DNA of 64,000 bases from Escherichia coli. Its GTDB lineage: Bacteria > Pseudomonadota > Gammaproteobacteria > Enterobacterales > Enterobacteriaceae. The stretch's first letter is position 1, and each line of letters starts with the position of its first letter. The DNA lies in NCBI RefSeq assembly GCF_003334305.1, contig NZ_QOWS01000006.1; one strand, given 5' to 3'. Below are positions 3,001 to 6,000 of the stretch, in pieces. Position numbers: made by a program.

Positions 3001-6000
3001 TGATCGGTCTTTTCATGATACAGAACGTTATCTACCGCAAAGTACTGCCCAAACTGGTCGTGTAGCGTTTCATGCCACTGTTTTTTTTCGGCCATGGGTT
3101 GATACCTCCTTTGTTAACACCCGTAAAAAAAGGGCGCAACATAATAGCTAACATTGACCGCGGATGCACGGTCAATATTTCTACAAAAAGGTATCAGGGA
3201 TTATTTGACGTAGGCAAGCAGGCTTAAGGAATCGCGGGCCAGGGCTTTGCATTTTTTAGCGACGGGAATGCCAATGCCGCTGAGATCGCGGTAGCTGTCT
3301 TCACCGAGGGCTTTCATGTCGAAGGTGTCGTAATTACTGAGATCCCACTGGTTTTGCTGGGCGAAAAAGACCAGTGCGCGACGAATTTGCCCGTTAGGTA
3401 AGTTCTGGTAACCACAATCGTTCTTCAGAAAGACAAAAACTGCCGTTAAATCGGCCATATCTTCGGCTTCAGACTCGCTGAGTGCGTAACTGTTTGCGCA
3501 AACGGCCATCAGGCTGCCGAATAACACTGTTCTGAAAAACGTCTTCATTGCTTCTACCAGGGGCTTAAAGAAGATAAACGTTAGCACACTGCGAGCGAGG
3601 CGACGACCATTATTGTCGATTAAATTGTGTCTGCGGCTTGACCTTCCCGTAAGGGGAAGGACTATGCTCAACGTTTGATTTTGTTTCGCCTGCTTAAGAA
3701 TAAGGAAATAACTATGCAACGTCGTGATTTCTTAAAATATTCCGTCGCGCTGGGTGTGGCTTCAGCCTTGCCGCTGTGGAGCCGCGCAGTCTTTGCGGCG
3801 GAACGCCCAACGTTACCGATCCCTGATTTGCTCACGACCGATGCCCGTAATCGCATTCAGTTAACTATTGGCGCAGGTCAGTCTACCTTTGGCGAGAAAA
3901 CTGCAACTACCTGGGGCTATAACGGCAATCTGCTGGGGCCGGCGGTGAAATTACAGCGCGGCAAAGCGGTAACGGTTGATATCTATAACCAACTGACGGA
4001 AGAGACGACGTTGCACTGGCACGGGCTGGAAGTACCGGGTGAAGTCGACGGCGGCCCGCAGGGAATTATTCTGCCAGGTGGCAAGCGCTCGGTGACGTTG
4101 AACGTTGATCAACCTGCCGCTACTTGCTGGTTCCATCCACATCAACATGGCAAGACCGGGCGACAGGTGGCGATGGGGTTGGCTGGGCTGGTGGTAATTG
4201 AAGATGACGAGATCCTGAAATTAATGCTGCCAAAACAGTGGGGTATCGATGATGTTCCGGTGATTGTTCAGGATAAAAAATTTAACGCTGATGGGCAGAT
4301 TGATTATCAACTGGATGTGATGACCGCCGCCGTGGGCTGGTTTGGCGATACGCTGCTGACCAACGGTGCAATCTACCCACAACACGCTGCCCCGCGTGGT
4401 TGGCTGCGCCTGCGTTTGCTCAATGGCTGTAATGCCCGCTCGCTCAATTTCGCCACCAGCGACAATCGCCCGCTGTATGTGATTGCCAGCGACGGTGGTC
4501 TGCTACCTGAACCGGTGAAGGTGAGCGAGCTGCCGGTGCTGATGGGCGAGCGTTTTGAAGTGCTGGTGGAGGTTAACGACAACAAACCCTTTGACCTGGT
4601 GACGCTACCGGTCAGCCAGATGGGGATGGCGATTGCGCCGTTTGACAAGCCGCATCCGGTAATGCGGATTCAGCCGATTGCTATTAGTGCCTCCGGTGCT
4701 TTGCCAGACACATTAAGTAGCCTGCCTGCGTTACCTTCGCTGGAAGGGCTGACGGTACGCAAGCTGCAACTTTCTATGGACCCGATGCTCGATATGATGG
4801 GTATGCAGATGCTAATGGAGAAATATGGCGATCAGGCGATGGCTGGAATGGATCACAGCCAGATGATGGGCCATATGGGGCACGGTAATATGAATCATAT
4901 GAACCACGGCGGGAAGTTCGATTTCCACCATGCCAATAAAATCAACGGTCAGGCGTTTGATATGAATAAGCCGATGTTTGCGGCGGCGAAAGGGCAGTAC
5001 GAACGTTGGGTTATCTCTGGCGTGGGCGACATGATGCTGCATCCGTTCCATATTCACGGCACCCAGTTCCGTATCTTGTCAGAAAATGGCAAACCGCCAG
5101 CGGCTCATCGCGCGGGCTGGAAAGATACCGTTAAGGTAGAAGGCAATGTCAGTGAAGTGCTGGTGAAGTTTAATCACGACGCACCGAAAGAACATGCTTA
5201 TATGGCGCACTGCCATCTGCTGGAGCATGAAGATACGGGGATGATGTTAGGGTTTACGGTATAAAAAGACCGTATTCGGAAATATGCCCGGATTTCTCCG
5301 GGCATTATGGTTACTTCACATCATCCGGCAGCGCATAAGCCACAATATAGTCGCCCATCTTCGTACCAAATGAACCGTGACCGCCTGCGGAGATCACCAC
5401 ATACTGCTTACCATTCACTTCATAGGTCATTGGCGTAGCCTGACCACCCGCTGGTAAACGACCCTGCCACAGTTTTTCACCGTTGCTCATGTTGTAAGCG
5501 CGCAGGTAGTTATCTGCCGTAGCGGCGATAAACAGCACGTTACCCGCCGTGGAGATTGGCCCGCCCAGCATCGGCATACCCATATTGAACGGCACCGGTA
5601 CAGGCATCGGGAACGGCATACTGTCCTGCGGCGTACCAATACGTTTCTTCCACACCACTTCATTGGTTTTCAGGTCCAGCGCCGAGATATAACCCCATGC
5701 TGGCTGTTTACACGGCAGACCAAACGGTGAGAGGAACGGGTTGAGCGTGACACCATACGGTACACCGTACTGTGGCTGAATGCCGGATTCCGTACCCGTG
5801 CCTTTGGCATCTTTCGGCTGCTCCATCGGGTTACCCGGACCGCGTGGGATCAGTTTCGAAACAAACGGCAGTGCCATTGGGTTGGCAATTGCCACTTCAC
5901 GATTTGGATCAACGGAAATCCCGCCCCATTCAAACATTCCCAGGTTACCCGGGAAGACCAGCGTGCCCTGTTCAGATGGCGGCGTGAAAATGCCTTCATA

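What the first reader, a model, noticed from the sequence alone, without database searches (positions are those of the whole stretch)
5265..5310. cueO-gcd (46 bp) and fhuB-hemL (34 bp) spacers look shorter than in K-12; the window is about 0.9 kb shorter overall
Using remembered K-12 coordinates for many genes as anchors, gene lengths agree block by block, but the offset jumps between blocks: about 155 bp at cueO/gcd, about 123 bp at fhuB/hemL (39969-40002) and about 713 bp at the yaeI locus. The first two are the size of REP/BIME elements, which vary between strains. This suggests the sequence is from a non-K-12 E. coli lacking several intergenic repeats. It rests entirely on recalled coordinates.
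Basis: inference. Interest (0 to 1): 0.2.

Follow-up and report, generated by a model that had tools for sequence, protein, structure and literature searches.

The report
Ordinary strain differences from E. coli K-12
The window comes from a wild-type, non-K-12 E. coli that lacks two small repeat elements and one accessory gene (yaeI) found in K-12; these are common, already known strain-to-strain differences.

Summary
The window is collinear with K-12 MG1655 133369-198312 (64,944 bp) and is 944 bp shorter.

- **cueO-gcd spacer:** 46 bp against 201 bp in K-12 (155 bp fewer).
- **fhuB-hemL spacer:** 34 bp against 157 bp (123 bp fewer).
- **yaeH-dapD gap:** 314 bp against 1027 bp (713 bp fewer).

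The first two K-12 surpluses are REP pairs. One is a BIME-1-like unit with an IHF consensus site, the other a BIME-2-like unit. The window has no REP anywhere in its 64 kb.

The third difference is not a repeat. K-12 carries the yaeI gene, and the window carries an unrelated 132-bp filler in its place.

None of the window's states is rare among 5426 complete E. coli genomes:

| Locus | Window-like | K-12-like |
|---|---|---|
| cueO-gcd | 1682 | 2742 |
| fhuB-hemL | about 3700 | 1701 |
| yaeH-dapD | 3341 (filler) | 2084 (yaeI) |

K-12 is the minority form at two of the three loci. A 25-kb stretch of the window is 100% identical to natural isolates such as strain A7.

BIME polymorphism and yaeI as an accessory gene are both published. 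Low interest.

The parts
5265..5310 (.). cueO-gcd intergenic spacer, 46 bp, REP-free allele
   Evidence: ORF ends. The K-12 spacer is 201 bp. Alignment. This junction is present in 1682 of 5426 genomes.
5284..5305 (.). Perfect 9-bp-stem hairpin ATGCCCGGA-tttc-TCCGGGCAT between the convergent genes. It is shared with K-12 and is a possible transcript 3'-end structure without a canonical U-tract.
   Evidence: Folding gives dG -21.6 and -19.3 kcal/mol, z about -4.0 on both strands. The simple terminator scan does not call it. It is present in K-12, clone D i2 and S87.
39969..40002 (.). fhuB-hemL intergenic spacer, 34 bp, REP-free allele, unrelated in sequence to the 157-bp K-12 spacer
   Evidence: The K-12-type spacer is in 1701 of 5426 genomes. 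The others seen in the spread listing have the window-type span of 434 bp.
39974..39996 (.). 10-bp-stem hairpin TGCCTCGCCC-ggt-GGGCGAGGCA, absent from K-12
   Evidence: Folding gives dG -21.4 kcal/mol, z -5.3 and -5.0. It is not called as a canonical terminator. The locus occurs once per genome.
50647..50778 (.). 132-bp AT-rich filler that occupies the place of K-12 184246-185090 (845 bp, including the yaeI CDS)
   Evidence: There is no blastn alignment to the K-12 segment. The filler is present in 3341 of 5426 genomes and yaeI in 2084, which sums to 5425. It is also in Escherichia sp. E1V33 at 93% identity. RefSeq annotates no gene there.
50608..50666 (-). Remnant of the 3' end of a 236-aa ORF that is intact between yaeI and yaeH in Escherichia sp. 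MOD1-EC7003 (L018:2172-2882). The window keeps about 20 bp more of it than K-12 does.
   Evidence: Anchored alignment. Blastn of L018:2160-2890 matches window-type genomes over query 673-731 and K-12-type genomes over 693-731 only.
50779..50799 (-). Hairpin CGGGCAGCATCATGCTGCCCG just after dapD, shared with K-12. It marks the right-hand boundary of the replaced segment.
   Evidence: Sequence comparison. The blastn block boundary is at 50779.

Best explanation
The window is an ordinary chromosomal segment (acnB to bamA) of a natural, non-K-12 E. coli. It differs from K-12 in length by three common structural polymorphisms plus small allelic indels in the yad fimbrial genes.

(1) At cueO/gcd, K-12 carries a BIME-1-like unit next to a hairpin that both strains share. 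The unit is a short z-type REP, a 35-bp linker with an IHF consensus site, and an inverted y REP. The window has only the hairpin.

(2) At fhuB/hemL, K-12 carries a BIME-2-like unit: a long z-type REP, a 15-bp linker and an inverted y REP. The window has a unique 10-bp-stem hairpin in its place.

(3) Between dapD and yaeH, K-12 carries the Tat-signal phosphodiesterase gene yaeI. The window carries a 132-bp non-coding filler that includes a remnant of another lost gene.

Shown here: the coordinates, the REP content, the population frequencies and the outgroup states at the yaeI site. Inferred: that the BIMEs arrived in the K-12 lineage through the REP-associated transposase or by recombination, that the hairpins serve as 3'-end structures for the convergent transcripts, and that the differences have little phenotypic effect.
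For: - Collinear alignment with exact offsets.
- Base-level spacer alignments.
- REP probe and signature scans find 0 REPs in the window and 4 in the K-12 equivalent.
- The K-12 surplus segments are dispersed repeats, with a median of 39 (capped at 40) and 9 places per genome.
- The IHF consensus AATCAATGGATTG lies in the K-12 linker.
- Definitions of REP, BIME-1 and BIME-2 and their variability between strains come from PMC3333891 and PMC2817692.
- Allele counts in 5426 genomes.
- 100% identity of 25 kb to natural isolates.
- yaeI is reported as enriched in phylogroup A (PMC5422975).
- At the dapD-yaeH site, about 70 non-Escherichia Enterobacteriaceae have a gap of about 110-125 bp without yaeI, and several Escherichia species have yaeI.
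Against: Nothing contradicts the reading. Three points stay open.
- The direction of change (gain or loss) at cueO/gcd and fhuB/hemL was not determined, because no outgroup was examined there.
- The hairpins lack a U-tract, so their terminator function is only plausible.
- About 95 bp of the 132-bp filler has no identified origin.
Confidence: 0.95

Rival explanations
1. The short spacers are assembly artefacts: repeat collapse in the genome the window comes from.
For: REP/BIME repeats can be collapsed by short-read assemblers.
Against: The identical 46-bp junction occurs in 1682 complete genomes. The 34-bp form is in most of the 5416 genomes that cover the locus. The filler is in 3341 genomes. 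Many of these are closed chromosomes from independent projects. The fhuB/hemL spacer is a different sequence, not a collapsed one.
Confidence: 0.01
2. The window is a K-12 derivative that suffered three laboratory deletions.
For: Gene order and gene lengths are the same as in K-12.
Against: There are about 1355 substitutions against K-12, with blocks 96.6-99.3% identical. The yadC allele is divergent. 25 kb is 100% identical to isolates from orangutan, echidna, chicken and human. The fhuB/hemL and yaeI sites hold replacement sequence that K-12 lacks.
Confidence: 0.01
3. The REP-free spacers are derived states: BIMEs that were present ancestrally were deleted in the window's lineage, rather than gained in the K-12 lineage.
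For: At cueO/gcd, the 124-bp BIME-bearing segment of the 201-bp allele is flanked by direct repeats (TCCGGGCAT and TCCGGCAT). A deletion between them would give exactly the 77-bp allele of clone D i2. The window allele is shorter still, by 36 bp with 5 bp of other sequence. At the yaeI site both E. coli forms look like deletion derivatives of a larger locus.
Against: The same direct repeats are equally compatible with an insertion. The strains I take to be B2 (clone D i2, ST131, JJ2434; phylogroup from memory, not tested) lack both BIMEs. The fhuB/hemL hairpin has no counterpart in the K-12 spacer, so a simple deletion cannot produce it. No outgroup was examined for these two loci.
Confidence: 0.3

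Closest known systems
REP/BIME elements of E. coli (BIME-1 and BIME-2; y, z1, z2 REPs; mobilised or processed by the RAYT TnpA-REP, yafM)
   Same: The K-12 segments missing from the window have all the REP features: 29-36-nt imperfect palindromes with a GTAG foot, pairs in inverted orientation, extragenic position and many copies per genome. The cueO/gcd linker carries an IHF consensus, as BIME-1 linkers often do. Variability of BIMEs between strains at a given locus is published (PMC3333891; PMC2817692, which cites Bachellier et al. 1997, Genetics 145:551).
   Different: The window itself contains none of these elements. Its spacers are single-copy hairpins without GTAG/CTAC. The published strain variation mostly concerns the number of tandem BIME units, whereas here the difference is presence against absence, and at fhuB/hemL a complete replacement.
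yaeI (b0164), Tat-signal metallophosphodiesterase, an accessory gene of E. coli
   Same: The K-12 gene matches NCBIfam NF008460 'phosphodiesterase YaeI' at 531 bits. It was reported as enriched in phylogroup A (PMC5422975). Here it is in 2084 of 5426 genomes.
   Different: The window lacks the gene and has a 132-bp filler at the same position. The site is empty (about 112 bp) in other enterobacterial genera.
Hairpins between convergent genes (bidirectional intrinsic terminators or 3'-end stabilisers)
   Same: Both spacers consist almost entirely of one stable G+C-rich hairpin placed between two convergent stop codons.
   Different: Neither has the U-tract required by the canonical model, and the consensus scan does not call them. 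Function was not tested.

Membership tests
REP/BIME (K-12 surplus segments) | Imperfect palindrome of 30-40 nt with a conserved GTAG at the 5' foot | tested here: met
   GTAGGCTGGATAAGGCGTTCACGCCGCATCCGGCA and GTAGGTCGGATAAGGCGTTCACGCCGCATCCGAC (y type), plus the z-type partners, at K-12 138699-138797 and 173504-173588. They agree with the consensus in PMC2817692 Table 1.
REP/BIME (K-12 surplus segments) | [quoted passage not shown] | tested here: met
   The cueO/gcd unit has a 35-bp linker with AATCAATGGATTG. The fhuB/hemL unit has a 15-bp linker. Definitions are from PMC3333891. My assignment of z1 and z2 rests on REP length and is not a formal classification.
REP/BIME (K-12 surplus segments) | High copy number, dispersed, extragenic | tested here: met
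REP/BIME (the window's own spacers 5265-5310 and 39969-40002) | REP sequence signature and multiple copies | tested here: not met
   No REP within 6 substitutions of four probes, no GTAGG...GATAAG signature, and only 12-bp chance blast hits. Each locus occurs once per genome.
Intrinsic (Rho-independent) terminator | G+C-rich stem-loop followed directly by a U-tract | tested here: not met
   The stems are present and stable. No run of T follows on either strand, and the scan finds 0 sites. Termination or 3'-end protection by the hairpin alone cannot be tested here.
YaeI phosphodiesterase gene | An ORF between dapD and yaeH that matches the YaeI equivalog | tested here: not met
   The window has 314 bp between yaeH and dapD with no alignment to yaeI. 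K-12 YaeI matches NF008460.

The most novel reading that the evidence does not exclude
The dapD-yaeH gap may be an Escherichia-specific micro-hotspot held as an old polymorphism that crosses species. Other genera have an empty gap of about 112 bp. Within Escherichia there are at least three states: yaeI alone, yaeI plus a 236-aa ORF, and a 132-bp remnant. Both the yaeI state and the remnant state occur inside E. coli and in other named Escherichia lineages. yaeI alleles within E. coli diverge to 80-90% nucleotide identity while the flanks stay above 96%. This could reflect long-term maintenance of both states or repeated exchange between species, rather than a single recent loss.
Probability: 0.3. 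Interest if true: 0.25.

Novelty: already known. Interest (0 to 1): 0.07.

Why it matters
It matters little. The result confirms that the window is a normal wild-type E. coli segment, and that comparisons of K-12 coordinates need correcting for BIME and accessory-gene polymorphisms. The allele frequencies are a small useful fact: K-12 is atypical at fhuB/hemL (31%) and at yaeI (38%). K-12 therefore carries an IHF-site-bearing BIME-1 downstream of cueO/gcd that half of the strains lack. That could matter only to someone studying 3'-end processing or local IHF or gyrase binding at these genes.

Tried and rejected
- **Rfam scan:** A gathering-threshold scan of the whole window found nothing in any of the three variable sites. 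It found only CssrA, t44 and the HtrA thermometer elsewhere.
- **Promoter/terminator scans:** Consensus scans of the three sites found nothing.
- **Small ORF:** I considered a small protein in the filler (a 40-aa ORF at 50692-50814, or 23 aa from the ATG after the GGGGGGAAGAAGA stretch). I rejected it for three reasons. It runs through the shared dapD hairpin. The ST131 version has a 5-bp indel just upstream and several non-conservative changes. RefSeq annotates nothing there.
- **Forced alignment of the filler:** A forced global alignment of the filler to the yaeI/orf236 locus of L018 gave only scattered short matches. Only the roughly 20 bp at the yaeH-proximal end is credibly homologous.
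- **orf236 family:** NCBIfam gave no family for the 236-aa ORF.
- **Literature:** Bachellier et al. 1997 (PMC1207841) is not held in the library, so it is cited only through PMC2817692.
- **Tool errors:** One folding call failed on sequence length and two search calls failed on term length.
- **Outgroups:** Outgroup states for cueO/gcd and fhuB/hemL were not obtained.

Full report
**Observation**

The spacer between the cueO stop (5262-5264) and the gcd stop (5311-5313, minus strand) is 5265-5310, 46 bp. The spacer between the fhuB stop (39966-39968) and the hemL stop (40003-40005, minus strand) is 39969-40002, 34 bp. In MG1655 (NC_000913.3) the annotated genes leave 201 bp (138634-138834) and 157 bp (173445-173601).

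A blastn of the whole window against K-12 132500-200000 gives four collinear blocks that cover K-12 133369-198312, which is 64,944 bp against 64,000 bp. The steps between blocks are 155 bp, 123 bp and 713 bp.

The full indel list adds the following:
- one 1-bp indel in acnB/yacL;
- many small indels in the divergent yadC allele;
- +6 bp in yadK, +3 bp in htrE and +7 bp in yadV/yadN, for a net 48 bp extra in the window.

So 155 + 1 + 123 + 713 - 48 = 944.

**What the K-12 surplus is**

At cueO/gcd both strains share the perfect hairpin ATGCCCGGA-nnnn-TCCGGGCAT directly after cueO. K-12 then has a further stretch that contains two REPs:
- GCCTGATGCGCTACGCTTATCAGGCCTAC, a short z-type REP on the plus strand;
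- GTAGGCTGGATAAGGCGTTCACGCCGCATCCGGCA, a y REP on the minus strand.

They are separated by a 35-bp linker. The reverse strand of that linker reads AATCAATGGATTG, a full match to the IHF consensus WATCAANNNNTTR. This is the anatomy of a BIME-1 as defined in PMC3333891.

At fhuB/hemL, K-12 has a long z-type REP (GCCCGATGCGACGCTGGCGCGTCTTATCGGGCCTAC), a 15-bp linker and an inverted y REP (GTAGGTCGGATAAGGCGTTCACGCCGCATCCGAC). This is the anatomy of a BIME-2 unit.

Both K-12 segments are dispersed repeats. The y REPs agree with the E. coli consensus in Table 1 of PMC2817692.

The window has no REP at all in its 64 kb. There is no hit within six substitutions of four probes, no GTAGG...GATAAG signature, and only 12-bp chance blast hits.

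**What the window has instead**

The cueO/gcd spacer is the shared hairpin plus a few bases. It folds at -21.6 and -19.3 kcal/mol on the two strands, with z about -4.

The fhuB/hemL spacer is a different, unique hairpin, TGCCTCGCCC-ggt-GGGCGAGGCA. It folds at -21.4 kcal/mol with z about -5. It has no counterpart in the K-12 spacer, so the two alleles replace each other completely.

Neither hairpin is followed by a U-tract, and the consensus scan calls no terminator. A role as a 3'-end structure for the convergent transcripts is plausible but only inferred.

**Allele series at cueO/gcd**

Four alleles were seen: 46 bp (window), 77 bp (clone D i2), 195 bp (S87) and 201 bp (K-12).

The 201-bp allele equals the 77-bp allele plus a 124-bp BIME-bearing segment. 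That segment is bounded by the direct repeats TCCGGGCAT and TCCGGCAT. The window allele lacks a further 36 bp next to gcd and has TATGG in its place. The direct repeats fit either an insertion or a deletion, so the direction is not settled.

**The yaeI locus**

K-12 184246-185090 is 845 bp: the yaeI CDS plus about 10 bp on its 3' side and about 21 bp on its 5' side. In the window it is replaced by 50647-50778, 132 bp of AT-rich sequence with no similarity to it. The right boundary is exactly the hairpin after dapD.

RefSeq annotates no gene in the filler. The filler is 92-100% identical among strains and has a 5-bp indel in ST131.

The outgroup survey used YaeH as a probe:
- About 70 species of Citrobacter, Klebsiella, Enterobacter, Kosakonia, Cedecea and other genera have dapD and yaeH 110-125 bp apart, with no yaeI.
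- E. albertii, E. whittamii, the GTDB E. coli representative and Escherichia sp. MOD1-EC7003 have yaeI, at 83-89% amino-acid identity to K-12.
- MOD1-EC7003 also has a 236-aa ORF between yaeI and yaeH.
- Escherichia sp. E1V33 has the window-type filler at 93% identity.

The last roughly 39 bp of that 236-aa ORF survive in K-12-type genomes. About 59 bp survive in window-type genomes. One E. coli genome (GF43) has the ORF complete.

Both common E. coli forms therefore look like different deletion derivatives of a larger Escherichia-specific insertion. The remaining 95 bp or so of the filler are unexplained.

**Population frequencies in 5426 complete E. coli genomes**

| Locus | Window-type | K-12-type |
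|---|---|---|
| cueO/gcd | 1682 (31%), 46-bp junction | 2742 (50.5%) |
| fhuB/hemL | essentially all the rest, 434-bp span in the spread listing | 1701 (31%) |
| dapD/yaeH | 3341 (filler) | 2084 (yaeI) |

At cueO/gcd the remaining genomes carry other alleles. At dapD/yaeH the two counts add up to 5425 of 5426, a clean dimorphism.

Within E. coli, yaeI itself ranges from 80% to 100% identity to K-12. Window 5000-29999 is 100% identical over 25,000 bp to strain A7 from an orangutan, and nearly so to several other isolates.

**Comparison with what is known**

BIMEs are described as a major source of intergenic polymorphism in E. coli and are used for strain typing (PMC2817692, which cites Bachellier et al. 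1997; PMC3333891). yaeI has been listed among genes enriched in phylogroup A (PMC5422975).

The finding is therefore a correct but ordinary observation. The only modest additions are the allele frequencies, the fact that the fhuB/hemL alleles are mutually exclusive sequences, and the small variable spot at dapD/yaeH within the genus Escherichia.

**Verdict**

Novelty: already known. Interest is low.

Noticed in passing
L018:2172-2882 (Escherichia sp. MOD1-EC7003); remnant at window about 50608-50666: A 236-aa ORF with no NCBIfam match sits between yaeI and yaeH in one Escherichia lineage and in one E. coli genome (GF43). Only its last 39-59 bp survive in other E. coli, including the window.
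   Followed up: partly
window 16347-17520 (yadC, yadC/yadK spacer, start of yadK): The yadC fimbrial tip-adhesin allele is strongly divergent from K-12, with about 20 small indels that are mostly balanced pairs keeping the frame. This accounts for most of the 3.4% divergence of the middle block.
   Followed up: no
window 56373-56482 (+): Rfam CssrA (RF02798) matches at 136 bits in the rpsB-tsf intergenic region.
   Followed up: no
window 55448-55534 (+) and 47245-47290 (+): Rfam t44 RNA lies upstream of rpsB and the HtrA 5' UTR thermometer lies upstream of degP. Both are above the gathering score and in their expected places.
   Followed up: no
yaeI in E. coli genomes: Within E. coli, yaeI alleles fall into identity bands down to 80-90% (75 genomes) and 90-95% (261 genomes) against K-12. 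This is much more divergence than in the flanking dapD and yaeH, and hints at old alleles or import from other Escherichia species.
   Followed up: no
K-12 138690-138800 compared with L003 and L004: The BIME-bearing 124-bp segment at cueO/gcd is bounded by the direct repeats TCCGGGCAT and TCCGGCAT. The first is the right arm of the shared hairpin and the second is the head of the y REP, so the hairpin arm resembles a REP head.
   Followed up: partly
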